Virus record (IMG/VR): IMGVR_UViG_2563366941_000007
Coordinates: 1 to 55,118 of that record
From: a virus
Lineage: Duplodnaviria > Heunggongvirae > Uroviricota > Caudoviricetes
Length of the DNA stretch: 55,118 nucleotides
Reading direction: 5' to 3' (one strand)
The translations under genes were made by a program, and so were the position numbers. How positions within the stretch are numbered: position 1 is the first letter of the stretch; each line of letters starts with the position of its first letter. Positions 1 to 51,828 of this stretch are shown here, piece after piece. The notes beneath the pieces were generated by a model. It worked only from the letters and a program-made list of their open reading frames with translations. It did not search any database and was not told the origin of the DNA.

Positions 1-71
1 TTTGTTGTCTGATTATTGATTTTTGGCGAAACCATTTGATCATATGACAAGATGTGTATCTACCTTAACTT

Positions 72-16903: not shown

Positions 16904-17694
16904 TTACGCCAGTTGAACGGACACGAACTCATCAGGATCAGCCAGCAGCATCAGCGGTGCTGACTGAATCATGGTGAACTCTCGCGCCGGATCGCCGGAT
17001 GTCTTCCAGTTTTTCGGATAACGGGGAGACGCATTAATACCCTCACTCAATGCATCCGCATCCTGAATACAGCCATAGGTGCGCAGACCGCGTGCATGAG
17101 TGTTACCCAGCACCATCGTGTTGTCCGGCAGGAAGTTCTTTTTGACGCCGTTTTCCACGTACTGTCCGGAATACACGACGATGGCCACATCTCCATACAT
17201 TCCCTTATAAGACACCGCTTTGCCCAGGTCTTTTACCGCTGTCTCCAGTTCGGAATGAGAGCCGCGACGGGTATCCAGCTTCTCCCTGACGGCTTTGAAG
17301 GAACGGAACAGCGCCCAGCCTTTCGGATCAAACACGATGATATTCACCACGCCGCTGGCGTTCAGCGCGTAGGCTTCGATATCGTCGGTCGGATCATACG
17401 TGGACTTGTCACGCTTGCTCCACTCCGTGCCGCCGGACTGCGTGATGTTGTTGGCCGCACTGCGGCCCATATCCACCTCAACCGGATCGAAGGCTTCACC
17501 AGTCATGGTGTATTTGCCCTTGAGCACGGCAGAAACGGCCTGCATCTCTTCGACCTGAGCAATGGCCAGCTCTTCGTCACGCATGTTCTGCATGATGATG
17601 CGACGGCGGCGGTAAGCCGGGTCCGCCAGATTCTGCGGATCTTCATCCGGCAGGCGACGCAGGGTCATCTGCGGATTCACCTCATGCTTGGGTT
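16904..17694 (-). pseudogene. E: Major capsid protein E, C-terminal fragment (codons from ...KPKHEVNPQMTLRRL to the stop)
   Basis: Translation matches about 260 C-terminal residues of lambda gpE; the N-terminal 91 codons lie 11.6 kb away at 29261..29536. Confidence 0.9.
17685..17694. repeat. 10-bp direct-repeat core TGCTTGGGTT, left copy (element/E junction)
   Basis: Identical 10-mer at 29292..29301; both sit exactly where E homology breaks. Confidence 0.8.
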
Positions 17695-17821: not shown

Positions 17822-18790
17822 CTAGTGCCAACCAGAATACGAATATCTTTGCTTTGCTTCTTCTGGGCTCATACCCACTAGTAAAGATACTAATTCAAAG
17901 TCAGGTTGTGGAATTGGAATCAATGCAGCCAAATATGCTGGCTTATTGAGAACAATTGTTGATAATTTAGCTTTATTCACCTTAGATAACTCAATATTAC
18001 TTTCCGCTACCTTCGGGAACTCCATAATAAATGAATCAATTTCCCTTATGAGATAATCGATCAACGCCACTATACTTTCTGTCAAATCAATATATTTTGA
18101 CAACTCACTAGCACCAATTTCTTTCTTTATTTCATCCAATTTAATTTCAAACACTGGCTTGTCTTTACTGGCAATATTAGACAAACGTTTCTTTAAATCT
18201 GAATCAAGCTGATTCCTGACAATTAAACTTTTCAAAACAAAATTATAATTAAACAAAAAAGCATCAATTCGAGCAATATTCCTCCATGACTTTCCAATTT
18301 CTTCATCTGACGGCATAATAAGTTCATGTTTTAGTATCTTGTACTTAATAAAAAAAACAAACCTCTCAAATAGAGATTTATTAGCTGTGGGTATCTTTTT
18401 TATAAATGAAAGACGGCTAATATCGAAATTTACCTCCCCGGCGTTAAATAAAAATTCATTTATTGCCAGCGCTCTTAATATTGGATTTCTAGATCTCAAA
18501 CCAATATAACTACTTTTAATTCCCACAAGTGTATTTATCATCTGAAAAGAAACCATCATAAGCGTATTAGCAGAATTAAATTTCTCCGTTTCTATTTTAA
18601 TCTTCTCCTGCCTATTATTGATGCAATAAGCAGTTAAGCCTCCCATAAGCGCCGATAAAAAAGATAATGCAATAGGGAATACATAATCTTTTGTATAATC
18701 AACATCTGCTTTCAACATTAGTATTGCTTTAGCAATCAAAACTGCATCAGGGGTCATGTTAGAGCCGTCATTAAAAATTAAACACAACAC
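17822..18790 (-). CDS. Hypothetical membrane-anchored protein (N-terminal TM segments plus ~250-aa soluble domain), AT-rich cargo gene
   Basis: 322-aa ORF in a conspicuously AT-rich segment; hydrophobic stretches AVLIAKAILML and VFPIALSFLSALMGGLTAYCI near the N-terminus; no recognisable family by eye. Confidence 0.55.
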   Translation of the reverse strand: MLCLIFNDGSNMTPDAVLIAKAILMLKADVDYTKDYVFPIALSFLSALMGGLTAYCINNRQEKIKIETEKFNSANTLMMVSFQMINTLVGIKSSYIGLRSRNPILRALAINEFLFNAGEVNFDISRLSFIKKIPTANKSLFERFVFFIKYKILKHELIMPSDEEIGKSWRNIARIDAFLFNYNFVLKSLIVRNQLDSDLKKRLSNIASKDKPVFEIKLDEIKKEIGASELSKYIDLTESIVALIDYLIREIDSFIMEFPKVAESNIELSKVNKAKLSTIVLNKPAYLAALIPIPQPDFELVSLLVGMSPEEAKQRYSYSGWH

Positions 18791-19454
18791 CCATAAAATA
18801 TAACAGCTTATTGTTTAGAAAAGCAATATCATACACTCTATGATAAGCGTAATATCTGACAGGCATGGTGTGTTACGACACTTAATTAAACGTAATTTGC
18901 TAAAATTTTACACACAGAATCACACCAGGCTCTAACTCTCCTTTCATTACAATTGTAAGCATACAATTATCCTACCAGAACTTTATTGTTGAGCTCTCCC
19001 TTTTGAGCCCATCCCATAATGAATTGACGAAAGAACCGTATCTGTGGAGTAATCATTTCTGCGCGGTTCTATGTCGAAGACAAAATGTGGTATGCGCATC
19101 TAGTCAGAGGGAAAGCAATTTTTCAGGGAAATATCATCTCTACATGGTTAAAACAACCAGAAGAAGTTATCAAGCAAGTTGGGTATGAAGATTTTCCTAT
19201 AATAGTAACGAAACGGGTTTCACCTGAGCGGTTGTGTTCGATCCGCCACAATACGCATAGGATGCCCTGTAATCCGTATTCTGCTTACTCAACAGCTTAC
19301 CAGCAGGACTCGTAAGGCTGTTGCGATAGTGCAGAAGTAGGCCACGACCATAAAGTGAAGCCAGTGGCGCGTTATCGACTACTTTAGTGTAGAGCCTGAT
19401 TTCAACGCAAGCATGAGAGTTTTTTCTGGCGATAGGCCGTGACAAACAGCAACA

Positions 19455-19675
19455 AAATCAGAGAAAGGAAACGGCAGAGGCCAAAAAGCCCGTTTTCAGC
19501 GCCTGTCATTTCCTTTCTTTTCAGGGGGTATTTTAAATAAAAACATAAAGTTACGGCAAAGAAGAACGGAAAAGCCTTAAACCGGAAAATTTCCATAAAT
19601 AGAGAAAAACTGCGCGCCTGACGCCCCGTAACGTTCTGGATCGCCGGAAAGGACCCGCCAGCCAGAGCGGGCCCT
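19455..19675. other. cos-like packaging site of the satellite (cosB R-site and IHF-site homologs; divergent cosN)
   Basis: Aligns base-for-base with much of the prophage cos region 35480..35720 (e.g. GAAAGGAAACGRCAGAGGCC, TTTCCTTTCTTTTCAGGGGGTATTTTAAATAAAAACAT, CCTTAAACCGGAAAATTT); differs at about 5 positions within the cosN-equivalent segment. Confidence 0.75.
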
Positions 19676-19682
19676 AATTTCA

Positions 19683-20066
19683 TCAACCAATCAGCTTATA
19701 GCGACCATCCCGTGCATTGCGGCGTACACGCTCAATCTTGAGGCATAGCGCCGCATCTGGCTTTTTTGGGACAGGTACGCGGCAATATTCAGAAGCGCGA
19801 GGAATATTATTTATCCAGTCGATCACTTCACTTAAATACCAGGCCTTACGCCCTTCCGTAACCTGCACACGCTCCGGGAACTCTCCACTAGCCTCAAGGT
19901 TTAGCAGTGTACGACGACTCAGGGTTGTAATTTCCATCACCTGATTCATATCAACAAGGCGCTCGCTTAAACACATTTTGTCAGCGATAGCTTTTAATTC
20001 CTCTACAGCTGGATTCGGGTACATCATTTCGGCAATTGGCTTAAGGTCATTGTAATCATTCTGCAT
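19683..20066 (-). CDS. AlpA/Nu1-like HTH protein next to cos; candidate packaging-redirection (Rpp-like) or regulatory protein
   Basis: 127-aa ORF with HTH-like segment MEITTLSRRTLLNLEASGEFPERVQVTEGRKAWYLSEVIDWI; functional call is inference from position beside cos. Confidence 0.45.
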   Translation of the reverse strand: MQNDYNDLKPIAEMMYPNPAVEELKAIADKMCLSERLVDMNQVMEITTLSRRTLLNLEASGEFPERVQVTEGRKAWYLSEVIDWINNIPRASEYCRVPVPKKPDAALCLKIERVRRNARDGRYKLIG

Positions 20067-20077
20067 TGTATCCCCCT

Positions 20078-20419
20078 TTACACACGAGCCAGCGGCTGAA
20101 CAGAAATACCTGAGCCAACAAACGCTGCAACCTTTACTGACAGTTCTTTAACAGACTCAGGCCAGTTCAGAGCATCAACATTTAAGACACCTGTCTTATA
20201 GACCTGAGCCTGTGTTTTTTTCGCGGTGTCGATTTGTACAGCGGAAACATAAACCGCTTTACCTACGCTCGAACCATCCCATACCACCAGTGCACCTGTT
20301 GCATCTTCCTGCATCAGTGGCGTAAATGCAGGAATTACCCCTTTATTAGCTGAAAATATCCCCAGCGTAGTCACCAGTGCTTCAGTGCCAGCCATGAGTT
20401 CAGTGTAATGAGTAGCCAT
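20078..20419 (-). CDS. Head decoration protein, divergent homolog of lambda gpD
   Basis: 113 aa; shares PLM...VVWDGS...YKTG...WPE...AAFVGSGISV pattern with gpD (PLML...VAWDGT...YKSG...WPE...[10 protein letters not shown]). Confidence 0.7.
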   Translation of the reverse strand: MATHYTELMAGTEALVTTLGIFSANKGVIPAFTPLMQEDATGALVVWDGSSVGKAVYVSAVQIDTAKKTQAQVYKTGVLNVDALNWPESVKELSVKVAAFVGSGISVQPLARV

Positions 20420-20428
20420 TGCTCCCCC

Positions 20429-21469
20429 TTAGCCAATGCGAACGGTAACAAAACGATTGATGCGGGCCGGTATTGGCTGTGGTGCTGAATGTGTCTGCAC
20501 ATATTCAATAGCCGGATCACCAGGCACAATATAGTTTTTCGGTGCAAGTTCGGCTTTAGTCAGCCCCATTCGGATTAGCTCCGGATCCTGAATACCGCCA
20601 TAGGCGACAATCCCCTGAAGAGCCGTATTGCCAAGCACCATCAAATCAGGATCAAGGAAATGTTTTTCTGTTCCGTCCTCGTCGGTATAACGCCCGCTGT
20701 AAACAACAATCGCAACATCGCCCATATACCCTTTAAAACTCACCGAATCACCAAGGTCTTTAAGGGCCGTTTCCAGTTCGGAATTAGAACCACGACGGGT
20801 ATCCAAAGCCTCTTTTATCGCTCTGAATGAACGGTATTTCTTCCATACATTACCACCCATAATGATGATATTAGTGACGCCCTCACTAAATTCTGCGTAG
20901 CTCTCAATATCATCATTTGGATCAAAAGTTTCTTTATCCTTACCTGACCACTCAGTACCGCCAGACTGAGTGATGATATTTTGTGGTTTTATATTCCAGT
21001 CCAGCTCATAACGTTCAATACCATCGCCCTCAATGATATTTTTCCCCGTTGTGATTGCCTGAACAGCAAGCCATTCAATACGTGCACGAATAGCTTTAGC
21101 CTGATTTACAATCGCCTGTTTAACTTTAATATTACGCGCCCCAAAAGCATTGTATTGCTCAGGTGACACACCAACAGGGCGCACAGCTAACTTATTTGGA
21201 TCAATGCTGCTTTTCGGCTTCATATAACCTGGACGAATTGTTTTTGATTCGTATCCCTCATCTCGTGAAACTTTACTGCCCACCATAGGAGAGCAAAACG
21301 CCGCGATCGGGATATTTGGATCGTCGATCGTATCAAGAATAATGTCTCTCGATTCAAACATTACCGAGCGAGTGAAAAACAAACTGGTAAACAACGCATT
21401 TAATTTTTTTTGTACATCTACAGCATTAACCACCTGTACAAGCTGAGTAGGCGAATATAAATCAACCAT
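20429..21469 (-). CDS. Major capsid protein, divergent homolog of lambda gpE
   Basis: Shares PGYMKPK, QSGGTEWS, DTRRGSNSELETALKDLG, GDVAIVVYSG, MVLGNT blocks with gpE; start at 21469 is preceded by AAGAGGA. Confidence 0.8.
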   Translation of the reverse strand: MVDLYSPTQLVQVVNAVDVQKKLNALFTSLFFTRSVMFESRDIILDTIDDPNIPIAAFCSPMVGSKVSRDEGYESKTIRPGYMKPKSSIDPNKLAVRPVGVSPEQYNAFGARNIKVKQAIVNQAKAIRARIEWLAVQAITTGKNIIEGDGIERYELDWNIKPQNIITQSGGTEWSGKDKETFDPNDDIESYAEFSEGVTNIIIMGGNVWKKYRSFRAIKEALDTRRGSNSELETALKDLGDSVSFKGYMGDVAIVVYSGRYTDEDGTEKHFLDPDLMVLGNTALQGIVAYGGIQDPELIRMGLTKAELAPKNYIVPGDPAIEYVQTHSAPQPIPARINRFVTVRIG

Positions 21470-21751
21470 ACGCATCCTCTTTGCATTCATTAAAAATAAT
21501 TGTGGATATATGCTATCACCGATATTTGTCATGCGAACACATGCAACCGAGTGCAATGTTGTATAAAGTTTTGGGGTGACAACTTCAGTGCGGACAATTA
21601 GTGTTAATATCTTCACTCCCTTTGGTCGGGATTTATGTAGCATGCCGGAAAATTTATTTTTTCCGGCCTTTTTTTATTGGCAATATTTAAAACGGGGGTG
21701 ATGCTGCCAACTTACTGATTCAGTGTATGATGGTGTTTTTGAGGTGCTCCA

Positions 21752-22027
21752 GTGGCTTCTGTTTCTATCAGCTGTCCCTCCTGTTCAGCTACTGACGGGG
21801 TGGTGCGTAACGGCAAAAGCACCGCCGGACATCAGCGCTATCTCTGCTCTCACTGCCGTAAAACATGGCAACTGCAGTTCACTTACACCGCTTCTCAACC
21901 CGGTACGCACCAGAAAATCATTGATATGGCCATGAATGGCGTTGGATGCCGGGCAACAGCCCGCATTATGGGCGTTGGCCTCAACACGATTTTACGTCAC
22001 TTAAAAAACTCAGGCCGCAGTCGGTAA
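21752..22027 (+). CDS. insA: IS1 InsA
   Basis: 91-aa [43 protein letters not shown]... Confidence 0.95.
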
Positions 22028-22449
22028 CCTCGCGCATACAGCCGGGCAGTGACGTCATCGTCTGCGCGGAAATGGACGAACAGTGGGGCTATGTCGGGGC
22101 TAAATCGCGCCAGCGCTGGCTGTTTTACGCGTATGACAGGCTCCGGAAGACGGTTGTTGCGCACGTATTCGGTGAACGCACTATGGCGACGCTGGGGCGT
22201 CTTATGAGCCTGCTGTCACCCTTTGACGTGGTGATATGGATGACGGATGGCTGGCCGCTGTATGAATCCCGCCTGAAGGGAAAGCTGCACGTAATCAGCA
22301 AGCGATATACGCAGCGAATTGAGCGGCATAACCTGAATCTGAGGCAGCACCTGGCACGGCTGGGACGGAAGTCGCTGTCGTTCTCAAAATCGGTGGAGCT
22401 GCATGACAAAGTCATCGGGCATTATCTGAACATAAAACACTATCAATAA
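21946..22449 (+). CDS. insB: IS1 InsB reading frame (InsAB' transposase made by -1 frameshift)
   Basis: ORF ...[50 protein letters not shown]... typical of IS1 InsB. Confidence 0.9.
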
Positions 22450-22463
22450 GTTGGAGTCATTAC

Positions 22464-22913
22464 CTAAAACGGGATATCATCTCCCCATTGCTCATTATCT
22501 CCCACTGGTGGCTGGCTTCCTTGCTGATCTGCCTGTTGTTTTGCTCTGTTCAGTGCGTCAGTAGCCTGCCCCTGTTGGCCTTTATTGCCGCCCGGTCGCA
22601 CCGATCGCGCACTGATTACGCTGTCTGCGATAACCTGCCAGCCCTGCCGCGTTTCGCCGTTCTGTCCAGTCCACTGGCTCATCTGCATGTTACCCGCCAC
22701 GCTCAGGAGTTCGCCTTTGTGATGCTTTGCCAGCGCGTCGGCTTGTCTGCCAAACGCCAGGACAGATAACCACATCGTCGCCTGACCGTCATCCGACTGA
22801 CTGCAGGGCAGTGATACCGCCATACGCGCCAACGTCATGGGGGTGCCCTTGCTGGTCTGTTTTGTCTGCGGGTCGTCCACCGACCGCCCGTAAACTGATA
22901 TTTGCGCCGTCAT
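22464..22913 (-). CDS. Single-stranded DNA-binding protein (SSB-like)
   Basis: 149-aa ORF with OB-fold-like core and acidic C-terminal tail ending DDIPF; the present stop codon TAG is formed by the last base of IS1 plus the target duplication. Confidence 0.7.
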   Translation of the reverse strand: MTAQISVYGRSVDDPQTKQTSKGTPMTLARMAVSLPCSQSDDGQATMWLSVLAFGRQADALAKHHKGELLSVAGNMQMSQWTGQNGETRQGWQVIADSVISARSVRPGGNKGQQGQATDALNRAKQQADQQGSQPPVGDNEQWGDDIPF

Positions 22914-23442: not shown

Positions 23443-25263
23443 TTAATTTTTGCTATCGTCATTAGTGACCGATACACATGATGGCATCCAGTCTTCTGAT
23501 TCCTCCGTCAGTGTCACGTTTGAACGCAAACCGTGCTTCGTTTTCCGTTTCATATACTCCCTGCCATATTCCGCCATTGCCCCCGGCATATCTTTACCGA
23601 AGCGCGTCAGTGTTACAGGTTTACCAAACCCATGTGCCCTCATATAAGCCAGATAGGCATGATAGAGATACCTGCGTGGGCTGAATGGCACAATTTCAGC
23701 ATTACCCACTAACAGGCCATCACACATTACCGATGCCATGAGATAGCCGCAGAAGTCCACCAGCGAATCCCCCTCTCGCTTTATCGCCAGTGCTTCTTCA
23801 GATTTCTGCTGCTCATATAACAGGCGTCTGGCTTCGTCCTGATCAGCAAACCGTGTAAGCAGATGACGAATCACTACCGCCAGCTCACCTTCTATTTTTT
23901 CCGCCAGCATCGAATCGCGTTCGTTCTCCGGTACAACTTCCGAAAAATTGAATATCACCCGACGACGTGAGATCCCCCCGCTGCGGTCACTGAATGACAT
24001 GGCGTTATTGTTAACCGCCAGCACTACTGCCGGAATACGCGTTGAATAGGGGGCTTTGTGTTTCGGGTCAATTGCCACCTTGTCACCGCCTGTAATGGCC
24101 TTAATCCCTGCCCCATCACCAGCGTAGCGGGTCATATCCGGCATGATAATCAGCGAAAAGCCAACCACTAACGCACGTTCCCTTGCATCTTCCAGCGCCT
24201 TCATGCTTGCTGATACTGTATTAGCCTTACCCGCCAGCATGGTGCAAATCTCCGCCATCACACTTTTACCACTTCCCCCCGGCCCTGTTACCTCAATGAA
24301 TAACTGCCAGTCGTACCGGTTCGCCAGCACCATGAATAATGCCGCCAGTACGCGATCTGCCTTGCGGTCATTCTCAGCCACCGAACGGCGCAACCACTTC
24401 CAGAAATTCGGCGCATGTGTTGCCAGCGTTTCCCCCTCTGCTGGTGGGCTGAAAGGTAATTCACTGGCAATTAACAACCAGTCGTTTTTGTTATGCTCCC
24501 GAAAATTACCAGTTCTGGTATCAAATACCCCGTTACTGAATCCAATCAGGTTACGGGCTGTATTCCCCATTACAGGCAAACTTAACTTCATGGTATCTAC
24601 CGCCGATTTAATAGCGTTCTGCGAATAGCTGATCTCCGCATCAATGAAAATCTGCGCCATAGCACGCTGTAACTCTTTATCCTGAACCGGCTCCCATACA
24701 ACGCCGTTGTAATGATGAACGGTGTCAGAGTCGGCATTGATTGCCAGTTCACCGCCATAATGTGCAAGGAGAACTTCACCGCGCTGGCTGGCCCCCATCT
24801 GATTCAACGCCAAAGATGAAGCACGCTCGTCATTTTTGCGCTCTGCCTTCTTCACTGGCAGTTCAATCACCAGACTTTCCCCATGCTCCGCTTCAGCTTT
24901 TAGGCCGACAAGGCGCGGAGTCCAGTCTTCAGGCTCTCGATCAACAAAGCTACGGTAACAACGTGCTTCCTTTACGCCTGCAATAGCAAGTAATGTCGCA
25001 ACCTTCGTCAGACTTTTCTCTGCAATCTTTCCGGCACGATAAACACGCACATAATGACGGCCTTCATCGATAATTTGCATATCATCCAGGTTTTCCAGTT
25101 GTTCCGTACCCAGAATGACTGGTGGTGTATCATCTGCTGCAATATGCTTACCTGCCCATTCATTCCATTCTTTTGCATGGCTCCAGGCATCACTGCCAGC
25201 AAAAATGATGACTTCCGTCATTTTGTCGCGCGGTTGGTATTTTAAGTTCGGAGCACGTTTCAT
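23443..25263 (-). CDS. Replication initiator, P4-alpha/D5-type SF3 helicase family (primase-helicase-like)
   Basis: 606-aa ORF with Walker A GPGGSGKS and surrounding D5/SF3-helicase-like sequence; adjacent to the iteron cluster. Confidence 0.7.
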   Translation of the reverse strand: MKRAPNLKYQPRDKMTEVIIFAGSDAWSHAKEWNEWAGKHIAADDTPPVILGTEQLENLDDMQIIDEGRHYVRVYRAGKIAEKSLTKVATLLAIAGVKEARCYRSFVDREPEDWTPRLVGLKAEAEHGESLVIELPVKKAERKNDERASSLALNQMGASQRGEVLLAHYGGELAINADSDTVHHYNGVVWEPVQDKELQRAMAQIFIDAEISYSQNAIKSAVDTMKLSLPVMGNTARNLIGFSNGVFDTRTGNFREHNKNDWLLIASELPFSPPAEGETLATHAPNFWKWLRRSVAENDRKADRVLAALFMVLANRYDWQLFIEVTGPGGSGKSVMAEICTMLAGKANTVSASMKALEDARERALVVGFSLIIMPDMTRYAGDGAGIKAITGGDKVAIDPKHKAPYSTRIPAVVLAVNNNAMSFSDRSGGISRRRVIFNFSEVVPENERDSMLAEKIEGELAVVIRHLLTRFADQDEARRLLYEQQKSEEALAIKREGDSLVDFCGYLMASVMCDGLLVGNAEIVPFSPRRYLYHAYLAYMRAHGFGKPVTLTRFGKDMPGAMAEYGREYMKRKTKHGLRSNVTLTEESEDWMPSCVSVTNDDSKN

Positions 25264-26333: not shown

Positions 26334-26690
26334 ATGAAATACGAATTCTTCGCAACAAGTAGCAGTAGTTTGGATGTATACATAGTCACTGTATCAAACG
26401 ATTCTGGCTCTCTAATCATGACTTGTAATTGTCCAGCAGGAAGTAAAGGTATTCTATGTAGACACCGTAAAGCTTTAATTACCGGAAAAATCCGCGGTAT
26501 ATTCACTCCCCCAAGAAGGAATAATCCCGAAAAATTACAAGAAGCTATAAATTTAATAGCCACATATGGCATAGATAAAACATTAAAGTTGTACACTGAT
26601 GAGTTAGAACGAGCAGAACAGACTTGGATAAGTGTTCGCGATAATTTGAGAGCAATGATAAACGCTCTTGTTGAACCACCTAAATATTGA
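26334..26690 (+). CDS. Small SWIM-type zinc-finger protein (CxCx9CxH), AT-rich cargo gene
   Basis: 118 aa; motif MTCNCPAGSKGILCRH; strongly AT-rich coding sequence. Confidence 0.5.
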   Translation: MKYEFFATSSSSLDVYIVTVSNDSGSLIMTCNCPAGSKGILCRHRKALITGKIRGIFTPPRRNNPEKLQEAINLIATYGIDKTLKLYTDELERAEQTWISVRDNLRAMINALVEPPKY

Positions 26691-26821: not shown

Positions 26822-27676
26822 TTACCCCCTGAATGGAATTGATGAGGATTTAATTTCCACAGAACCAAATCCTCTTGAATCCAAAAACATTTTTATACCA
26901 GCCTCAATAAAATCATAATCGCTTGTCGGGCCAATTGTAATGCTTTTAATTGGTAACTTTCTATTATCTTTATTATTAATAATGATATAAGGGATGATAC
27001 CATTATTATTTATTCTAAATTTCACATCTGGCATTTGTATCCACGGAGTAAACACCAGTCTAAATTCATTTTCTTCGATAAAACTAGGATGTTTAAAAAA
27101 TGGGATATATTTAGATATAAATTGATACGTAGAGACCATTGTTACAAAATGATCATTCATTTCTTTAATGTTAATACCATTACAAGAAAAAAACTCATCC
27201 AACTCCTTACTCATCTTTGTAATATCGTCATTATTTGAATATATAACATCATGTGCAACACAATTTAAATAAATATTTTGACAAAAACTCACAAGTTCAT
27301 CCGCATCAAATTCAATGCAAACGCCCTGTTTATTTCCGTAACCTCTCCACTGACTTAACTTATCGTTTTCTTTACAAAAAGATATGCTATAAACATGTTT
27401 ATCAATCCCTTTTTCTTTTTGTAACTTCCCTTTCTCATACATGTCAAGAGACTTGAGCAAAATAGTTTTCTTATCTTTTGGGATGATATTATCATCAACT
27501 ATTTTAATTGTATTTCGAAAACATTCACATCCATGGTTAGACTCCTCTTTATCATTTAAGAAATATATATTTGTAGCCCATAAAGAATTAGAGTCTAATA
27601 TACCTTTCAAACCAAAAAGATCTGTATAATGAAATATAGCCACAATGCCCCACCTAATAGTTAAGTCGTTTCCCAC
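26822..27676 (-). CDS. DUF2971-like protein, AT-rich cargo gene (candidate defence-associated)
   Basis: 284 aa; N-terminal FHYTDLFGLKGILDSNSLWATNIYFLNDKEE fits the DUF2971 signature as recalled; AT-rich. Confidence 0.55.
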   Translation of the reverse strand: MGNDLTIRWGIVAIFHYTDLFGLKGILDSNSLWATNIYFLNDKEESNHGCECFRNTIKIVDDNIIPKDKKTILLKSLDMYEKGKLQKEKGIDKHVYSISFCKENDKLSQWRGYGNKQGVCIEFDADELVSFCQNIYLNCVAHDVIYSNNDDITKMSKELDEFFSCNGINIKEMNDHFVTMVSTYQFISKYIPFFKHPSFIEENEFRLVFTPWIQMPDVKFRINNNGIIPYIIINNKDNRKLPIKSITIGPTSDYDFIEAGIKMFLDSRGFGSVEIKSSSIPFRG

Positions 27677-27891
27677 TCACCTCGAATCCATGCCTGCACT
27701 TCTGAAAGACGATATGCAACAGCAGTGGAACCAATCTTGATCCGCTTAGGAAATTTTCCTTCCTTCTCCAGCTTCCAGCGTGTGCTGTTCGCAAGAGTGG
27801 TTAGCTCCCGACATTCTTTCTCACGGATCATACGATCGATGTTAGGAATGTACTCCAGACCCTTTTTATCAACAATTGCCATTTTTTTCAT
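27661..27891 (-). CDS. alpA: AlpA-family transcriptional regulator/excisionase-like HTH protein
   Basis: 76 aa; ...LTTLANSTRWKLEKEGKFPKRIKIGSTAVAYRLSEVQAWIRG matches the AlpA (CP4-57 regulatory) family; adjacent to int. Confidence 0.75.
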   Translation of the reverse strand: MKKMAIVDKKGLEYIPNIDRMIREKECRELTTLANSTRWKLEKEGKFPKRIKIGSTAVAYRLSEVQAWIRGEWETT

Positions 27892-27892
27892 G

Positions 27893-29128
27893 TTAACCAG
27901 CCTTTTGTTTGAGGATTGTCACTTTTGAATCAGCACCTGCGATGCTATTGAGATATGTAGTCCAGAGTTCCAGAGCATCCAGTTTTTTAGCCATAAACTT
28001 ACTCCGGTTGTAAACACCCGCCACGCCAGGTAGCGCATGGCCTAACAGTTGTTCTACTACATAAAATTCAACACCGAGATCACTTAGATGAGTAGATAGC
28101 GTTCTTCTAAGGTCGTGTAGTGACCATTGTTTTTCATGGCCCAAACGTTTACCGATTTTCCCCCCAATCTTGCTTACGCTTTCTCTAATTCGCAGACTTC
28201 CCAGCACATAACCAGTATGTCTTGTCTCTTCGTGAACATCCGTTACCCACTGTCGTAGAATTTCAGGTACTGGTCTGACGATTTCAACACCAGTTTTTGA
28301 GTGATCTTTTGGTACCGTCCAAACCCAACTTTCGAGATCCCATTCGCTCCATTCAGATAATCGGGCTTCACTCATTCGACATCCAAATACTGTACAAAGC
28401 ACAAACATTTTTCGCGTGTATTCAGACATTAGTTTTAAATCAGGCTCGACAAAAATTGCCTTCCAGAGCTGGCCCAGTTCGGCTTCATCCAGAACCCGAT
28501 CCCGCTTACCTGCAATCTGCCCCACATCACTCATGCGCAAATCCTTTAAAGCATCACATGTCGCGTACTGGCGTACCCGACAAAAACGAAGAGCTAATTT
28601 AGTGTCAGAAAAAACATACGCCGCCATAACTGGTGCATTACGTTTAATTCGGTCAAAACAGTCCAGCCATTCATATAGGTGAGTGTCATTTACAGGCAAA
28701 TGACCGATATAGGGAAAGATATGCTTTCGAAATCTGCCAAGCGTTACAGCATGAGTTTTACGACGCACCTTACAGTAATTTTCATACCAGTAATTTAGTG
28801 CATCCTCCACTGTGACCGGCTTTAAGCGTTCTTCAGCCTGAATCTTAATCTGGATACGCGGATCACGTTTGTCAGCCAACCAACCACGGCACTCGTCGCG
28901 CTTTTCCCTTGCCTGTTTGAGTGACATATCAGGATATTTACCCAACGTTAGCCAGACCGGAGCAGCCCGGCCACCTGCTAACCTGTAGAAGAAAACAAAG
29001 CTCACAGCCCCCTTGGTACTCACACGAATAGAAAGCCCCTTTCCATCAGCAATGGTGATCTGCTTTTCTCTGGGTTTCCCCAGATATCCTTTAAGCGCTT
29101 TGTCGCTCAGTTTGTTCTCGCCAGCCAT
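27893..29128 (-). CDS. int: Tyrosine integrase, P4-like family
   Basis: Start MAGENKLSDKALKGYLGKPREKQITIADGKGLSIRVSTKG... has a P4-integrase-like N-terminus; C-terminal HDLRRT...LLGH...Y catalytic-region motifs; sits at the element end. Confidence 0.85.
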   Translation of the reverse strand: MAGENKLSDKALKGYLGKPREKQITIADGKGLSIRVSTKGAVSFVFFYRLAGGRAAPVWLTLGKYPDMSLKQAREKRDECRGWLADKRDPRIQIKIQAEERLKPVTVEDALNYWYENYCKVRRKTHAVTLGRFRKHIFPYIGHLPVNDTHLYEWLDCFDRIKRNAPVMAAYVFSDTKLALRFCRVRQYATCDALKDLRMSDVGQIAGKRDRVLDEAELGQLWKAIFVEPDLKLMSEYTRKMFVLCTVFGCRMSEARLSEWSEWDLESWVWTVPKDHSKTGVEIVRPVPEILRQWVTDVHEETRHTGYVLGSLRIRESVSKIGGKIGKRLGHEKQWSLHDLRRTLSTHLSDLGVEFYVVEQLLGHALPGVAGVYNRSKFMAKKLDALELWTTYLNSIAGADSKVTILKQKAG

Positions 29129-29260: not shown

Positions 29261-29536
29261 CTACACGAAAGCCTCAGAAAGCCATGCTAAGTGCTTGGGT
29301 TTGACATATCCCGGCGTAAATTCAGAGGTGGAGCCGCCACGGGAGCGGATAACCTCACCGGAAACAATCGGCGAAACGTACAGCGCCATGTTTACCAGTC
29401 CCGGAATTTGTGAGAGATAGACTTTCTCCGTAGTGAAGGGATAGCTCTCACGGAAAAAGAGACGCAGAAACAGCGGATCAAACTTAAATTTCTGCTCATT
29501 TGCCGCCAGCAGTTGGGCGGTTGTGTACATCGACAT
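29261..29536 (-). pseudogene. E: Major capsid protein E, N-terminal fragment (91 codons) fused to 9 element-derived codons
   Basis: MSMYTTAQLLAANEQKFKFDPLFLRLFFRESYPFTTEKVYLSQIPGLVNMALYVSPIVSGEVIRSRGGSTSEFTPGYVKPKH then LAWLSEAFV-stop. Confidence 0.9.
29292..29301. repeat. 10-bp direct-repeat core TGCTTGGGTT, right copy (element/E junction)
   Basis: Identical to 17685..17694. Confidence 0.8.
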
Positions 29537-29591: not shown

Positions 29592-29924
29592 TTAAACGAT
29601 GCTGATTGCCGTTCCGGCAAACGCGGTCCGTTTTTTCGTCTCGTCGCTGGCAGCCTCCGGCCAGAGCACATCCTCATAACGGAACGTGCCGGACTTGTAG
29701 AACGTCAGCGTGGTGCTGGTCTGGTCAGCAGCAACCGCAAGAATGCCAACGGCAGCACCGTCGGTGGTGCCATCCCACGCAACCAGCTTACGGGTGGAGG
29801 TGTCCAGCATCAGCGGGGTCATTGCAGGCGCTTTCGCACTCAATCCGCCGGGCGCGGTTGCGGTATGAGCCGGGTCACTGTTGCCCAGCGGCTGGTAATG
29901 GGTAAAGGTTTCTTTGCTCGTCAT
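29592..29924 (-). CDS. D: Head decoration protein D
   Basis: [27 protein letters not shown]... matches gpD (110 aa); true start two codons inside the ORF-track call. Confidence 0.95.
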
Positions 29925-29933
29925 AAACATCCC

Positions 29934-31233
29934 TTACACTGGTGTGTTCAGCAAATCGTTAACGGCATCAGATGCCGGGTTACCTGCAGCCAGCGGTGCC
30001 GGTGCCCCCTGCATCAGACGATCCAGCGCAGTGTCACTGCGCGCCTGTGCACTCTGTGGTGCTGCAGCCAGAATGCGGCGGGCCGTTTCCACGGTCATAC
30101 CGGGGGTTTCTGCCAGCACGCGGGCCTGTTCTTCGCGTCCGTGAGCCTCCTCACAGTTGAGGATCCCCATAATGCGGCTGTTTTCTGCCGCAACCGCAGC
30201 GGTGATCTGCGCGTTCACGTCCGGCTGCGCCGCGCTGGCGTTTTCGCCCTCCGTCGCTGGCACCACGTCAGTAACGTCAGCCTGCGAAGCAGTGGCTGAA
30301 ACAGTTGTTGATTGAGTCTCTTTGGTCATTCGCCCTCCTGAGAGACGGGATTTACGCGCATCCAGTGCATCACGCATAACGGTGATCGCATCGGTGCTGT
30401 TGACAAGTTCATCAGCCAGTCCGGCATCAATGGCCTCCTGACCGCTGTACACTGCAGCCTCGGTATCCAGCACAGCCTGCACAGACAGGCCGGTATATGC
30501 CGACACCTTCTGCGCAAACATCCGGCGGGTTGCGTCCATCCGGGACTGCAGTGTCTCCCGGACGTCATCCGGAAGATGGCTGTAGGGGTTGCCATCCACC
30601 TTATGGCTGCCGCTGTAAATCAGCGTGATTTCCACGCCCTGTTTCTCCAGGGCAGCACCGTAATTACTGTGAGCCATCATGACGCCGATGGAGCCTGTCC
30701 GGGCGGTCTGCGTGACCAGACGCCGGGAGGCGGCGCTGGCAAGCAGCTGACCTGCACTGCAGTTCATGTCGTTGGCCAGCGCCCATACCGGCTTTATGTC
30801 ACGCACACGGGCGATGATGTCAGCGCAGTCAAATGCCCCTGCCACCATCCCGCCTGGCGTGTCCATATCGAGCAGAATGCCGTCCACCATCGGGTCGCTG
30901 GCAGCCTGTTGCAGACGGGCGATAATGCCGTTGTAACCGGTCATCCCCGAATACGGCTGCAGCGCCCGCGTCCGGCTGACCAGCGTGCCGGACACCGGCA
31001 GCACGGCGATGCCGTTCATGACCTGATAACTGCGGGCCTGTCGTGGTCAGTCATCATCAACGGATAACGCCAGCGCCGCGGGTGCCTCTCCGGCAGTCAG
31101 GCTGTCGCCGGACACCGCATCCGTCAGGCGGCTGATCCCAAGCTGGCCTGCAAGCGCACAAAAGAAAACCCGCGCATAGGCGGGTTCAAGCATCAGCGGC
31201 TCATTAAAGGCCATGCTGGCAATATGCGGGAGA

Positions 31234-31253
<20 letters not shown>
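29934..31253 (-). pseudogene. C: Head protease/scaffold C (with internal Nu3 frame), interrupted by an in-frame TGA
   Basis: N-terminal part (GTG start, VTAELRNLPHIASMAFNEPLM...) and the 361-aa C-terminal ORF are in the same frame, separated by a single TGA at 31044..31046. Confidence 0.75.
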
Positions 31254-34934
<3,681 letters not shown>

Positions 34935-34960
<26 letters not shown>

Positions 34961-35480
34961 TCAGCAACCCCGGTATCAGTTCATCCAGCGCGGCTGCTTT
35001 GTTCATGGCTTTGATGATATCCCGTTTCAGGAAATCAACATGTCGGTTTTCCAGTTCCGGAAAACGCCGCTGCACCGACAGGGGGATCCCGTCGAGAATA
35101 CTGGCAATTTCACCTGCGATCCGCGACAGCACGAAAGTACAGAATGCGGTTTCCACCACTTCAGCGGAGTCTCTGGCATTTTTCAGCTCCTGTGCGTCGG
35201 CCTGCGCACGCGTAAGTCGATGGCGTTCGTACTCAATAGTCCCTGGCTGGAGATCTGTCTCGCTGGCCTGCCGCAGTTCTTCAACTTCCCGGCGCAGCTT
35301 TTCGTTCTCAATTTCAGCATCCCTTTCGGCATACCATCTTATAACGGCGGCAGAGTCATAAAGCACCTCATTACCCTTGCCACCGCCTCGCAGAACGGGC
35401 ATTCCCTGTTCCTGCCAGTTCTGAATGGTACGGATACTCGCACCGAAAATGTCAGCCAACTGCTTTTTGTTGACTTCCAT
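34935..35480 (-). CDS. Nu1: Terminase small subunit Nu1
   Basis: 181-aa ORF MEVNKKQLADIFGASIRTIQNWQEQGMPVLRGGGKGNEVLYD... = gpNu1. Confidence 0.95.
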
Positions 35481-35720
35481 TGTTCATTCCACGGCCAAAA
35501 ACAGAGAAAGGAAACGACAGAGGCCCAAAAGCTCGTTTTCAGCACCTGTCGTTTCCTTTCTTTTCAGGGGGTATTTTAAATAAAAACATTAAGTTACGAC
35601 GAAGAAGAACGGAAATGCCTTAAACCGGAAAATTTTCATAAATAGCGAAAACCCGCGAGGTCGCCGCCCCGTAACCTGTCGGATCGCCGGAAAGGACCCG
35701 CAAAATGATAATAATTATCA
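35480..35720. other. cos: Prophage cos site (cosB R-sites/IHF site and cosN; cohesive-end 12-mer AGGTCGCCGCCC at 35667..35678 on the plus strand)
   Basis: Reverse complement of the lambda left-end sequence GGGCGGCGACCTCGCGGGTTTTCGCTATTTATGAAAATTTTCCGG..., directly upstream of Nu1. Confidence 0.9.
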
Positions 35721-37297: not shown

Positions 37298-37568
37298 GAT
37301 GTTACCGTAGTATGTGAGTATCCATCGAATAGACACCAAGCAAAAAAGCTCCCGAAGGAGCCTTCATTTTCACTTTTTTAAATCCAACGACAGACGGCTG
37401 GCATTTAAGTATTGTGAAATATTATCAAATGTAATCATCATTGATTTACAAAAGATACATTTTGCCCCGAAAGGATTCATGTCAGAAACATCAAAAGATG
37501 ATGTTCTATACTGGGAACCATGACAACACGGGCATCTAAAGTGAATATGGTTTGTAATATTGTCTACC

Positions 37569-37781
37569 TCAAAGCGCCACTACATGAACAGCGGCAGGAC
37601 CTTTAGGTCCGTTCTCAATACCAAATTCAACTTCCTGATTCTCAGTTAATGTTTTGAAATCGTTGCTCTGAATTGCTGAGAAATGGACAAACACATCTTT
37701 GCTGCCATCTTTCGGCGTGATGAAACCAAAACCTTTTTCAGGGTTAAACCATTTCACTAAACCAGTCATTTTGTTAGACAT
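37569..37781 (-). CDS. cspI: Cold shock protein CspI-like
   Basis: 70-aa [45 protein letters not shown]... Confidence 0.85.
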
Positions 37782-38143
37782 AATTATTACCTTTTGAAGA
37801 AATTAGCCCTTGGGCAGAATGGTCCGAAAAAAAATATCAGAGAGAAAAACCAACAAGGAAATCTCAAGAGGTACAAATAATAAAATTATAACAATGACTG
37901 CTTCAGATAAATTTGTAACAAACCAGAACACCATTAACGCATGATTAACCACCCATAGCAAGGATTACTTTTGTAAAGAAAAACACAGCAATGAAAGAAT
38001 AGCTTTATTTATTAATAAAACGTGTCATTCTGATTAAGACCTTTTATCTTACCCTTAAGATTTCAGGAATTTTGGCTCATGGAAGAGTCCTTTTTATTTA
38101 AATTTTACATTCCGCGATGTAAATGTTCCGATTTAATATTACC

Positions 38144-40171: not shown

Positions 40172-40452
40172 GAGATTGTGGTGCTTTTTGTGGGAGTCAT
40201 CCACTTACGCACTTTGTTTTGCCATGCCAGCAGTTAGCTTCTGCTGTAAAACTATTCATGCAGCAAACCTGCACTTCACCACAATGGTTAGCATACTTTT
40301 CCTGATTAAGATTTTGCCAAATATGCTAGCCATTGTTTCATGTATTGGACCTCCTTACTTTTTATTAAAGAGATCCAATATTCACTACTCTGTCCGTATC
40401 TCTACTCAGGCATCAGCCTTCTTCGTTATCGTATACAGACGAGCGATGAATT

Positions 40453-40668
40453 TTAATCAGTAATGATGACATTTGCTGCTGCAGGACCTTTAGCACCACT
40501 CTCTATAGAGAAGGTAACCTTTTGACCTTCAAATAAGGTTCGATAATTATCATTCTGAATCGCAGAAAAATGCACAAACACATCTTTACTACCATCAACA
40601 GGAGAAATAAAGCCGAAACCTTTATCAGCGTTAAACCATTTTACTAAACCAGTCATTTTATTTGACAT
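40453..40668 (-). CDS. cspB: Cold shock protein CspB
   Basis: 71-aa [53 protein letters not shown]... Confidence 0.9.
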
Positions 40669-40968
40669 TCTACATTCCTTAACTTGAGCCTTTCGGCATA
40701 AATGGTTTGCATAACAGAAACGACTTCGTACTTAATTGGAGAGACTCAAAGAAGGAATAAGTGAATAACACCTGAAATGAGAACTGCTTTAGTAAACTAC
40801 TTCGTATATCGTCTGTTCTTCAAACCGACGCAATCATTAACGCATAGTTGAACATATGAAGCAATGTTTATTTTAGACATCCAGCCATCTTCAACCCCAT
40901 CAAAAAACTATAGCTTTCTTCAGGAACGTGTGTATAGTGCGCCAAGTTATCAGTATTAAGGAATTTTT

Positions 40969-51505: not shown

Positions 51506-51828
51506 TTTTTCCAGAGGCGGTCGAACTCCGCCTTCGCAAAATAAGCGGAAGCCTGGCGAAGGATATCGTTACTGCGGCGCAGTTCACGATTTTCACGTTC
51601 CAGCTCTTTCAGACGCTGACGTTCAGCGGTGGTGAGTCCTCCATCACCGCCCCCGGTATCCCGCTCATGCTGGCGAACCCAGACACGCAGAGTCTCCGGC
51701 GTACAGCCAATCTTTGGAGCAATGGAACAAATTGTCGCCCATTGTGAGTCATATTCGCTCTGACTTTCCAGAACCATACGGACTGCCCGTTGACGGACTT
51801 CGGGGGAAAAACGAGTATTTTTAGTCAT
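51502..51828 (-). CDS. IS3-family transposase OrfA
   Basis: 108-aa [55 protein letters not shown]... with leucine-zipper-like C-terminus. Confidence 0.85.

What the first reader, a model, noticed from the sequence alone, without database searches (positions are those of the whole stretch)
20078..21469. The satellite carries its own divergent homologs of the helper capsid (E) and decoration (D) proteins, the very gene it interrupts
ORF 20429..21469 shares conserved blocks with gpE (PGYMKPK, QSGGTEWS, DTRRGSNSELETALKDLG, GDVAIVVYSG, MVLGNT) but is clearly divergent. ORF 20078..20419 shares the gpD pattern (PLM...WDG...YK.G...WPE...AF.G..IS). An element that knocks out the helper major capsid gene while supplying a related capsid and decoration pair suggests capsid substitution or capsid-size redirection, with the helper providing terminase, portal and tails. 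The element core repeat lies in the codons for the GYVKPKH motif of E, and the element E-like protein keeps a PGYMKPK motif, though its DNA there does not carry the att core.
Basis: partly seen in the sequence, partly recalled or inferred. Interest (0 to 1): 0.8.

Follow-up and report, generated by a model that had tools for sequence, protein, structure and literature searches.

The report
Known satellite's own capsid gene pair
The two genes really are diverged copies of the lambda head shell and head decoration genes, carried by a small phage parasite sitting inside its helper prophage's shell gene, but this element family and this gene pair are already published.

Summary
ORF 20429-21469 (-) is a full-length lambda gpE-type major capsid protein: 42% identical to the helper's E, Pfam Phage_cap_E 140 bits, predicted fold TM 0.96 to PDB 3BQW and 0.93 to lambda gpE. 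ORF 20078-20419 (-) is a gpD/SHP-type decoration protein.

Both genes lie in an 11.6-kb satellite inserted at codon ~80 of the helper's gene E, flanked by the 10-bp core AACCCAAGCA.

This is a member of the published helper-embedded PICI family "11capE" (Tommasini et al. 2023, PMC10111431). It has the same site and the same core, a 99.5% identical integrase and a 99% identical capsid. That paper already reports an element that disrupts E yet carries its own capsid gene. The capsid/decoration pair of the related EcCICFT073 was described and deleted in 2018 (PMC6092414). [quoted passage not shown]

New here:
- The pair belongs to a satellite-specific lineage with gene order E then D.
- It is under strong purifying selection (dN/dS 0.04-0.12 where enough changes exist).
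- It also occurs in relatives that leave the helper's E intact.

Capsid substitution remains possible. Size redirection is disfavoured. Novelty: already known.

The parts
20429..21469 (-). E-like gene: satellite-encoded gpE-type (HK97-fold) major capsid protein, 346 aa
   Evidence: It is 42% identical to the helper's E, E=9e-85, with Pfam PF03864 at 140 bits. PDB sequence matches are 3BQW 3e-121 and 7VI9 2e-77. The model matches 3BQW at TM 0.96 and lambda gpE at TM 0.93. It is 99.1% aa identical to the 11capE capsid, with dN/dS 0.04-0.09.
20078..20419 (-). D-like gene: satellite-encoded gpD/SHP-type head decoration protein, 113 aa
   Evidence: It is 38% identical to the helper's D, E=1e-17, with Pfam PF02924 at 56 bits. 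PDB matches are 1TD0 5e-16 and lambda gpD 1e-11. It is 54% identical to EcCICFT073 c1500. dN/dS is about 0.1 against the L002 variant.
19683..20066 (-). 127-aa AlpA-like winged-HTH protein, the third gene of the conserved late module (E-like, D-like, HTH, cos)
   Evidence: Pfam Phage_AlpA 7.6e-9 and PDB 8C3T AlpA 2e-9. It shows no similarity to RppA or to the EcCICFT073 gene at the equivalent position. It is found with the pair in 32 of 34 viral contigs and in L001, L003, L004 and L005. An AlpA-family HTH of different length holds the same position in L007.
19453..19658 (-). Satellite cos-like site, with a cosB side like the helper's but a variant 12-nt cohesive end (GGGCGTCAGGCG)
   Evidence: It is 88.8% identical to the helper's cos region 35496-35701. 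The alignment shows the cosN difference. Canonical GGGCGGCGACCT occurs only at 35658-35669.
21696..22464 (+). IS1 inserted at the ssb stop codon, 226 bp upstream of the E-like ATG and opposite in orientation to the satellite genes
   Evidence: The insA/insB ORFs are. The flanks align to 11capE with an 8-bp target duplication. This junction is absent from all 5,426 complete E. coli genomes.
22464..22913 (-). Satellite SSB
   Evidence: Pfam SSB 5.9e-15.
23443..25263 (-). Satellite primase/helicase (D5_N, DUF5906, Pox_D5)
27661..27891 (-). alpA (excisionase/activator)
   Evidence: Pfam Phage_AlpA 3e-15.
27893..29128 (-). Satellite tyrosine integrase
   Evidence: Pfam integrase domains. It matches the 11capE integrase at 409 of 411 residues.
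29292..29301 (-). attL core AACCCAAGCA
   Evidence: It is identical to the core listed for Eco567.11.E_Phage_cap_E_80 in the supplement of PMC10111431.
17685..17694 (-). attR core AACCCAAGCA
29292..29536 (-). Helper gene E, 5' part (codons 1-82), fused after the core to 9 satellite-encoded codons (LAWLSEAFV, then stop)
16904..17694 (-). Helper gene E, 3' part. Joining the two parts at the core restores a continuous 341-aa lambda-type E
29592..29924 (-). Helper gene D (110 aa), intact
17822..18790 (-). Low-GC 322-aa cargo ORF in the variable slot at the attR end
   Evidence: No Pfam or PADLOC hit and GC 0.32. Relatives carry TIR, a restriction endonuclease, Abi, or HEPN plus DUF262 in this slot.
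26822..27676 (-). Low-GC DUF2971 cargo ORF after alpA
   Evidence: Pfam DUF2971 7.6e-12.

Best explanation
The two ORFs are the capsid (gpE-type, HK97 fold) and decoration (gpD/SHP-type) genes of the conserved late zone of a Gram-negative phage-inducible chromosomal island (PICI). Here the island is a helper-embedded PICI of the published 11capE family, inserted at codon ~80 of gene E of a lambdoid prophage and co-oriented with the helper's late operon.

Shown:
- Both genes are intact.
- They are full-length and collinear with lambda E and D.
- They are under strong purifying selection.
- They belong to a satellite-specific lineage whose gene order, E then D, is the reverse of lambda's.
- That lineage is inherited with PICIs whatever their integration site.
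- Precise excision at the 10-bp core would restore the helper's E.

Inferred (about 0.4 on its own):
- While the element is integrated, Q-antiterminated helper late transcription reads through it and expresses the pair.
- The products act as real shell and cement subunits in normal T=7, phage-sized heads. They replace or mix with the helper's E and D.
- Those heads are built on the helper's portal, protease and scaffold.
- The helper's terminase fills them from the satellite cos site with about four satellite genomes (4 x 10.8-11.6 kb = 43-46 kb).
- In the E-embedded configuration, this supplies shell protein before or without restoration of E.

The pair is not a special adaptation to disrupting E, and it is probably not a size-redirection device.
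For: Identity of the genes.

Membership in the 11capE family: the same 10-bp core and an attL flank matching a family member listed in the paper's supplement. The integrase is 409/411 identical. The capsid is 99.1% and the decoration protein 99.1% identical to the NRG857c copy. The attL junction is present in 173 of 5,426 complete E. coli genomes.

Selection: E-like dN/dS is 0.04-0.05 within the family and 0.08 at dS of about 1.3 against the clpS/cspD variant. D-like is about 0.1.

Satellite lineage:
- PICI pairs are 54-99% identical to each other but only 40-46% to helper E and D. This holds even for an Edwardsiella PICI compared with its own helper.
- The homolog search is bimodal, with a clade at >=52% identity and lambda-type capsids at <=44%.
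- No record among 50,697 phage genomes exceeds 43% identity.
- Gene order is E then D in every PICI examined.

Other support:
- In-silico excision restores a 341-aa E.
- The satellite cos is 89% identical to the helper's cos.
- E-like has no extra domain relative to gpE.
- Published: an element that disrupts E yet carries its own capsid gene, together with the backup-copy idea and late read-through (PMC10111431).
Against: - In EcCICFT073, deleting the capsid homolog (c1499) or the decoration homolog (c1500) changed neither island transfer nor lambda interference. The authors found no phenotype for c1499 (PMC6092414). A structural role is therefore not essential with an intact helper.
- The satellite encodes no portal, protease or scaffold. 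E-like would have to work with helper partners despite only 25-40% identity outside residues 166-285.
- In this copy an IS1 separates the pair from the upstream satellite genes. The helper's gpC carries a TGA at codon 69. This particular composite may therefore be inactive.
- No expression or particle data exist for this element. Promoter and terminator scans were at chance level.
Confidence: 0.55

Rival explanations
1. Capsid-size redirection. The E-like protein, alone or with D-like, forces small (T=3 or T=4) heads that hold one or two satellite genomes and exclude the 48-kb helper. SaPIbov5 Ccm does this, and it has been suggested for PmCI172.
For: - The satellite genome is about a quarter of the helper's (10.8-11.6 kb).
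- A capsid-homolog mechanism is precedented in SaPIbov5. Small capsids were seen for Pasteurella PmCI172, which also encodes a capsid homolog (PMC6092414).
- The N-arm, E-loop and C-terminal regions are conserved among PICI capsids but diverged from lambda E.
Against: - In EcCICFT073 plus lambda, all packaged DNA was phage-sized, and deleting c1499 or c1500 did not relieve interference.
- E-like is collinear with gpE, has no added or missing domain, and superposes on lambda gpE at TM 0.93.
- Four satellite copies (43-46 kb) fit a normal lambda head.
Confidence: 0.1
2. Specific compensation for the knocked-out gene. On this view the pair was acquired or retained because the element destroys E, making the satellite the sole capsid supplier.
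For: - In this configuration the helper's E is split and the only intact E-type gene is the satellite's.
- Tommasini et al. note that a captured copy may functionally replace the interrupted gene.
Against: - A 99% identical pair sits in an HE-PICI in the portal gene with intact helper D and E (L004; also L008).
- The pair also occurs in chromosomal PICIs.
- The pair at >=95% identity is found in about 367 genomes, whereas the E-site attL junction is found in 173.
- The lineage is old and does not derive from the local helper.
Confidence: 0.1
3. A non-structural or antagonistic role. The pair would act as poison subunits or decoys that disturb head assembly of helper or competing lambdoid phages, or interact with capsid-sensing host defences, rather than building the satellite's own heads.
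For: - Strong purifying selection despite having no phenotype in transfer assays.
- PICIs commonly interfere with helpers.
- The A-domain core is 50-77% identical to lambda E, which could allow co-assembly.
Against: - Deleting c1499 or c1500 did not relieve interference with lambda. That interference was later mapped to RppA acting on TerS.
- No toxin-like or sensor-like feature is present.
- Carrying a cognate decoration protein fits a structural role better.
Confidence: 0.15
4. Functionless remnant of late-gene capture from a helper prophage.
For: - Late-gene capture by PICIs is documented.
- No deletion phenotype was found.
Against: - Intact ORFs are found in hundreds of genomes.
- dN/dS is 0.04-0.12 where enough substitutions exist, including at dS above 1.
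- The pair is conserved across six genera.
- Gene order is the reverse of lambda's, and no close phage donor was found.
Confidence: 0.05

Closest known systems
HE-PICI Eco567.11capE (E:Phage_cap_E:80 group) of E. coli NRG857c, Tommasini, Mageeney & Williams 2023 (PMC10111431)
   Same: - It has the same integration site in lambdoid gene E, the same 10-bp core AACCCAAGCA, and the same co-orientation with the late operon.
- The gene order is the same: int, alpA, variable zone, primase, ssb, capsid, decoration, HTH, cos, cargo.
- The integrase is 99.5%, the capsid 99.1% and the decoration protein 99.1% identical.
[quoted passage not shown]
   Different: - The cargo differs: DUF2971 and a 322-aa ORF here, against HEPN plus DUF262 and others in NRG857c.
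- This copy has an IS1 between ssb and the capsid gene.
- Its helper has a TGA in gpC.
- In the text I read, the paper does not discuss the decoration gene, the reversed E-then-D order, the selection regime or the variant cohesive end.
EcCICFT073 c1499 (capsid; crystal structure PDB 3BQW) and c1500 (head decoration), Fillol-Salom et al. 2018 (PMC6092414)
   Same: It is a capsid-then-decoration pair in the late zone of a Gram-negative PICI of the same architecture. The proteins are 54-55% identical, closer than either is to lambda E and D. The model matches 3BQW at TM 0.96.
   Different: - It is chromosomal, next to phoQ, and not helper-embedded.
- It carries RppA and canonical lambda cohesive ends at both of its cos sites.
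- It lacks the 127-aa HTH.
[quoted passage not shown]
SaPIbov5 Ccm (satellite-encoded capsid homolog that makes small capsids)
   Same: It is a satellite-borne homolog of the helper's HK97-fold capsid protein, and its helper is a cos phage.
   Different: It is Gram-positive and belongs to an unrelated capsid family. Ccm's function is size redirection, for which there is no evidence here and contrary evidence in EcCICFT073. No sequence relationship was tested.
Capsid-forming PICIs (cf-PICIs)
   Same: These are satellites that encode their own capsid protein instead of relying wholly on the helper's.
   Different: By their published description (abstract seen, plus my own knowledge), cf-PICIs encode all the proteins needed to make and fill their own small capsids and take only tails from the helper. 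This element has only the shell and decoration genes.
Phage lambda gpE/gpD and phage 21 SHP
   Same: They share the same protein families and folds and the full-length collinearity.
   Different: Identity is only 38-43%. The gene order is reversed (lambda D then E, satellite E then D). The N-arm/E-loop and C-terminal regions have diverged, and they include the parts that bind gpD in lambda (PMC5701804).

Membership tests
Lambda gpE-type major capsid protein (Pfam PF03864, HK97 fold) | Profile match above the curated threshold over the whole domain | tested here: met
   The score is 140.4 bits against a cut-off of 22.9, covering profile positions 4-327 of 329.
Lambda gpE-type major capsid protein (Pfam PF03864, HK97 fold) | Full-length collinear similarity to experimentally solved gpE | tested here: met
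   The 7VI9/7SJ5 matches score 2e-77, covering residues 12-345 against 8-340. Identity to the helper's E is 42% end to end.
Lambda gpE-type major capsid protein (Pfam PF03864, HK97 fold) | HK97 fold | tested here: met
   The AlphaFold model has pLDDT 84 and pTM 0.84. Foldseek gives TM 0.96 and rmsd 1.5 to 3BQW, and TM 0.93 to lambda gpE 7SJ5.
Lambda gpE-type major capsid protein (Pfam PF03864, HK97 fold) | Assembles into a procapsid or capsid shell | not testable with these tools
   This needs expression, assembly or particle proteomics. 3BQW is a crystal structure from structural genomics, not a structure of an assembled capsid.
gpD/SHP head decoration protein (Pfam PF02924) | Profile match above the curated threshold and similarity to solved gpD/SHP | tested here: met
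   HDPD scores 56.3 bits against a cut-off of 29.1. 1TD0 (SHP) scores 5e-16 and lambda gpD 1e-11.
gpD/SHP head decoration protein (Pfam PF02924) | Trimeric fold and binding at capsid three-fold sites | not tested
   No structure was predicted for D-like, and binding cannot be tested here.
Gram-negative PICI | Integrase and alpA at one end, co-oriented with a primase/replication module; size about 10-20 kb; flanked by att direct repeats | tested here: met
   The element has int, alpA, a D5-type primase and SSB, all on the minus strand. It is 11.6 kb between the 10-bp repeats, or 10.8 kb without IS1.
Gram-negative PICI | Carries a packaging signal usable by the helper (cos) or its own terS | tested here: inconclusive
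   A cos-like site is 89% identical to the helper's cos, but 5 of the 12 cohesive-end bases differ. There is no terS and no Rpp homolog. Cleavage by the helper's terminase is untested.
Gram-negative PICI | Helper-induced excision, replication and high-frequency transfer | not testable with these tools
   Excision and replication are shown experimentally for 11capE, but virions were not detected (PMC10111431).
Helper-embedded PICI, site group E:Phage_cap_E:80 | [quoted passage not shown] | tested here: met
   The insertion follows codon 82 of E. The core AACCCAAGCA equals the published one. The truncated E' runs into 9 foreign codons. Excision restores a 341-aa E.
Helper-embedded PICI, site group E:Phage_cap_E:80 | Integrase of the HE-PICI clade | tested here: met
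   It is identical to the founding 11capE integrase at 409 of 411 residues.
Capsid-forming PICI (cf-PICI) | Own portal, protease/scaffold, head-tail connectors and terminase in addition to the capsid protein | tested here: not met
   None of these appears among the element's ORFs or Pfam hits. Only the capsid and decoration genes are present.
Rpp-type packaging redirection (EcCICFT073) | RppA/B/C homolog next to a cos site with a divergent cosB | tested here: not met
   The 127-aa HTH has no similarity to RppA. The PDB search of the 127-aa HTH returned only an AlpA-family structure. cosB here resembles the helper's.

The most novel reading that the evidence does not exclude
The E-like/D-like pair, the adjacent 127-aa wHTH protein and the satellite-specific cos with altered cohesive ends (GGGCGTCAGGCG) may together form a semi-autonomous head module. 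This would be a stage between classical PICIs and capsid-forming PICIs. On this reading the satellite builds its own shell, possibly of a different size, on the helper's portal and scaffold. It marks its DNA with ends incompatible with the helper's, so satellite and helper particles are separated both structurally and genetically. The neutral deletion phenotype in EcCICFT073 would then reflect redundancy with an intact helper E, not lack of function.
Probability: 0.15. Interest if true: 0.6.

Novelty: already known. Interest (0 to 1): 0.22.

Why it matters
As a discovery it does not add much. A satellite embedded in its helper's capsid gene while carrying its own capsid gene was published in 2023. 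The capsid/decoration pair of the sister element was described, deleted and even crystallised (3BQW) years earlier.

What remains open is why hundreds of E. coli genomes, and relatives in at least six genera, keep an intact and strongly constrained capsid-plus-cement pair that has no known phenotype. An E-embedded member is the natural system in which to test this, because the helper's own E is unavailable until excision.

Three observations from this work sharpen that question:
- The pair belongs to a satellite-specific lineage.
- Its gene order is the reverse of lambda's.
- It does not depend on the integration site.

They do not answer the question.

Tried and rejected
- **Rpp-type packaging factor.** I compared the 127-aa HTH with EcCICFT073 RppA and with the gene at the equivalent position and found no similarity. 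The PDB sequence search returned only an AlpA structure.
- **Rfam scan for P4 CI/isrK-type immunity RNAs.** There were no hits inside the element.
- **Promoter and terminator scans around the pair and across the element.** Counts were at the shuffle expectation and so uninformative.
- **PADLOC on the cargo and small ORFs.** Only weak sub-threshold hits appeared.
- **Search for the source genome through the IS1 junction.** No complete E. coli genome carries it.
- **Search for a phage donor of the pair.** No record among 50,697 phage genomes exceeds 43% identity.
- **Search for a phage with the variant cohesive end.** All 34 viral-contig matches are satellites with the same module. The best phage cos matches are about 90% identical overall, like the helper; I did not read their cohesive-end bases.
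- **Literature search for later functional work on PICI capsid homologs.** I found none in the library.
- **The 404-aa reading of the E-like ORF (start at 21643).** I rejected it in favour of 21469, on the basis of the RBS, the RefSeq annotation of relatives and the alignment to gpE.
- **Structure prediction of D-like.** I did not run it, because the profile and PDB sequence matches already place it in the family.
Full report
**1. Setting.**
The window is a lambdoid prophage read on the minus strand. Its genes are:
- Nu1 at 34935-35480
- A at 33035-34960
- W
- portal B at 31234-32835
- C at 29934-31253
- D at 29592-29924
- a split E
- FI, FII and the tail genes down to about 1245.

GC content drops between about 17.7 and 29.3 kb. 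That stretch is an inserted element. Its genes, all on the minus strand, are:
- integrase, 27893-29128
- alpA, 27661-27891
- a DUF2971 ORF
- small ORFs
- a D5-type primase, 23443-25263
- an 81-aa ORF
- SSB, 22464-22913
- the two ORFs of the finding
- a 127-aa AlpA-like HTH, 19683-20066
- a 322-aa low-GC ORF, 17822-18790.

An IS1 lies on the plus strand between ssb and the E-like gene.

**2.
- ORF 21469->20429 (346 aa) aligns end to end with the helper's E at 42% identity, E=9e-85.
- ORF 20419->20078 (113 aa) aligns with the helper's D at 38% identity, E=1e-17.
- Pfam gives Phage_cap_E at 140 bits and HDPD at 56 bits, both far above their curated cut-offs.
- Against PDB sequences, E-like hits 3BQW (3e-121) and lambda gpE (2e-77). 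D-like hits phage 21 SHP (5e-16) and lambda gpD (1e-11).
- An AlphaFold model built on 40 homologs (pLDDT 84) superposes on 3BQW at TM 0.96 and on lambda gpE 7SJ5 at TM 0.93.
- The 10-bp repeat AACCCAAGCA occurs exactly twice in the window, at 29292-29301 and 17685-17694, within the GYVKPKH codons.
- The E-like gene's PGYMKPK codons do not contain that repeat.
- Joining the two E fragments at the core gives a continuous 341-aa lambda-type E.

**3. The configuration is already published.**
Tommasini, Mageeney & Williams (2023, PMC10111431) describe Eco567.11capE of E. coli NRG857c. [quoted passage not shown] It has a 10-bp identity block and is nested in the lambdoid prophage 50icd. They named the configuration helper-embedded PICI (HE-PICI). 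They found 201 elements at the same site in E and 290 more at 13 other late-gene sites.

Their supplement lists the core of the founding element as aacccaagca. Its attL alignment contains a family member whose sequence matches the window's attL over the stretch shown.

I fetched the NRG857c locus (L003) and compared it with the window:
- The integrase is 409/411 identical.
- The capsid is 99.1% identical in amino acids.
- The decoration protein is 99.1% identical.
- The HTH is 100% identical.

The window's element is therefore a member of this family. It differs in cargo genes and in its IS1.

**4. The capsid/decoration pair is known from the sister element.**
Fillol-Salom et al. [quoted passage not shown]
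- Deleting either gene changed neither lambda interference nor island transfer.

I located EcCICFT073 in CFT073 (L006). Its 351-aa capsid is 54-55% identical to the window's E-like protein, and its decoration protein is 54-55% identical to D-like. The 3BQW alignment shows the same residues as the L006 protein. The PDB title names E. coli CFT073. So the crystal structure appears to be that of a PICI capsid protein.

The interference of EcCICFT073 was later assigned to RppA acting on TerS (PMC6739421).

**5. What this analysis adds.**

(a) *Distribution.*
- The pair is present at >=80% coverage in 395 of 5,426 complete E. coli genomes. About 367 of these are at >=95% identity.
- The E-site attL junction is present in 173 genomes.
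- A 99% identical pair lies in an HE-PICI in the portal gene, next to intact helper D and E (L004).
- A 96% identical pair lies in a PICI at tRNA-Pro (L005).
- An 84% variant lies between clpS and cspD (L002).
- More distant pairs lie in a fis-site PICI of Serratia (L007) and in a portal-embedded PICI of Edwardsiella (L008).
- The pair is therefore a generic PICI late module. It is not a response to the loss of E.

(b) *Lineage.*
- PICI pairs are 54-99% identical to each other and 40-46% identical to helper E and D. This includes a PICI compared with its own helper.
- The homolog search is bimodal, with one group at >=52% identity and another at <=44%.
- No record among 50,697 phage genomes exceeds 43%.
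- Every PICI examined has the order capsid then decoration. Lambda and the helpers have D then E.
- This argues for a single old acquisition inherited with the satellites, rather than repeated capture from local helpers.

(c) *Selection.* E-like has dN/dS of 0.04-0.05 within the family and 0.08 at dS of about 1.3. D-like is about 0.1. The genes are functional.

(d) *Divergence profile.*
- E-like and helper E are 50-77% identical over residues 166-285 and 23-40% identical elsewhere.
- PICI capsids conserve residues 46-105, 121-165 and 241-346 among themselves.
- The first of these stretches covers the E-loop hairpin of the model (strands at about 57-89).
- In lambda, the N-arm and E-loop strands pair with the gpD N-terminus (PMC5701804).
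- That would fit a co-adapted E-like/D-like pair. This last step is inference.

**6. Mechanism.**

*Shown:*
- The genes are intact.
- The element is co-oriented with the helper's late operon.
- Excision would restore E.
- The element has a cos-like site 89% identical to the helper's cos, directly downstream of the HTH.

*Inferred from established lambda biology:* Q-modified RNA polymerase reads through terminators and polar insertions. The integrated element, including the pair behind the IS1, should therefore be transcribed with the helper's late genes.

*Most likely role (about 0.4):*
- The proteins are true shell and cement subunits in normal-sized heads built with the helper's B, C and Nu3.
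- Those heads are filled with about four satellite genomes (43-46 kb).
- This gives the embedded satellite capsid protein before E is restored.

The neutral deletions in EcCICFT073 show that this role cannot be essential when the helper's E is intact.

Size redirection is possible in principle. It is disfavoured by the collinear protein, the fold identity and the EcCICFT073 DNA-size result.

**7. State of this copy.** Three features suggest decay.
- An IS1 with an 8-bp target duplication sits at the ssb stop codon, 226 bp upstream of the E-like ATG. It is seen in no complete E. coli genome.
- The helper's gpC has GGA->TGA at codon 69.
- Further IS signatures lie in the helper.

Tommasini et al. 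also note that many HE-PICI helpers look truncated.

**8. Verdict.**
- The finding is already known.
- Interest is low, apart from the unresolved function of a widespread and strongly constrained satellite capsid/decoration pair.

Noticed in passing
window 19453-19658 (satellite cos) vs 35496-35701 (helper cos); L001, L003, L009-L042: The satellite cos is 89% identical to the helper's on the cosB side, but 5 of its 12 cohesive-end bases differ (GGGCGTCAGGCG against lambda-type GGGCGGCGACCT). The variant is shared by the E-embedded relatives L001 and L003. PICIs at other sites (L002, L004, L005) and both EcCICFT073 cos sites keep the canonical end. All 34 IMG/VR contigs with the variant carry it about 56 bp after the E-like/D-like/HTH module, and none is a phage cos. 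I did not find this mentioned in the sections of the 2023 paper that I read.
   Followed up: partly
L022, L027, L033, L035 (IMG/VR contigs): Some relatives with the same module and the variant cos carry a Nu1-like small terminase (70-71% identical to the helper's Nu1) about 170 bp downstream of the cos. The window's element has cargo there and no terS.
   Followed up: no
window 31047-31049 (minus strand), within helper gpC 29934-31253: There is an in-frame TGA at codon 69 of the helper's head protease gene C (lambda has Gly there). The internal Nu3 frame is unaffected. The helper may be defective for head maturation.
   Followed up: partly
window 21696-22464: An IS1 (insA/insB on the plus strand) is inserted exactly at the ssb stop codon with an 8-bp target duplication. 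It separates the capsid/decoration/HTH module from the upstream satellite genes. The junction is absent from all 5,426 complete E. coli genomes.
   Followed up: yes
window 20078-21469 vs 29592-29924 plus the split E; L002, L004-L008: The gene order in the satellite is capsid then decoration. This is the reverse of lambda and of the helpers (decoration then capsid), and it is consistent in every PICI examined.
   Followed up: yes
window 17822-18790 and 26822-27676; L001, L003 and the hits: There are two variable low-GC cargo slots, one after alpA and one at the attR end. Here they hold a DUF2971 protein and an unannotatable 322-aa protein. Relatives carry TIR, a restriction endonuclease, an Abi protein, or HEPN plus DUF262 at the attR-end slot. 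This looks like a defence-gene hotspot, as in P4-like satellites.
   Followed up: partly
window 29261-29536 (minus strand): The split leaves an expressible E' fragment: the 82 N-terminal residues of E fused to LAWLSEAFV from the satellite. Its fate and any effect on assembly are unknown.
   Followed up: no
P0004 (463 aa) and P0079 (470 aa): Two low-count database proteins (clusters of 1 and 5 member sequences) carry both Phage_cap_E and HDPD domains in one chain. They could be capsid-decoration fusions or assembly or frameshift artefacts.
   Followed up: no
window 1-62, 704-902, 37542-37927, 40437-40829, 47675-47846, 51431-51547, 54612-54663: Rfam hits in the helper and its flanks: IS10 RNA-OUT, IS009, two cspA thermoregulator leaders, a sok antitoxin RNA, an ALIL pseudoknot (IS3-family transposase frameshift site) and DicF. 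There are no Rfam hits inside the satellite.
   Followed up: no
window 26334-26690 (+ strand): This 118-aa ORF is antisense to the satellite genes. Its counterpart in L001 is annotated as a SWIM zinc-finger protein. It has a weak PADLOC hit (PDC-S62, 5e-5).
   Followed up: no
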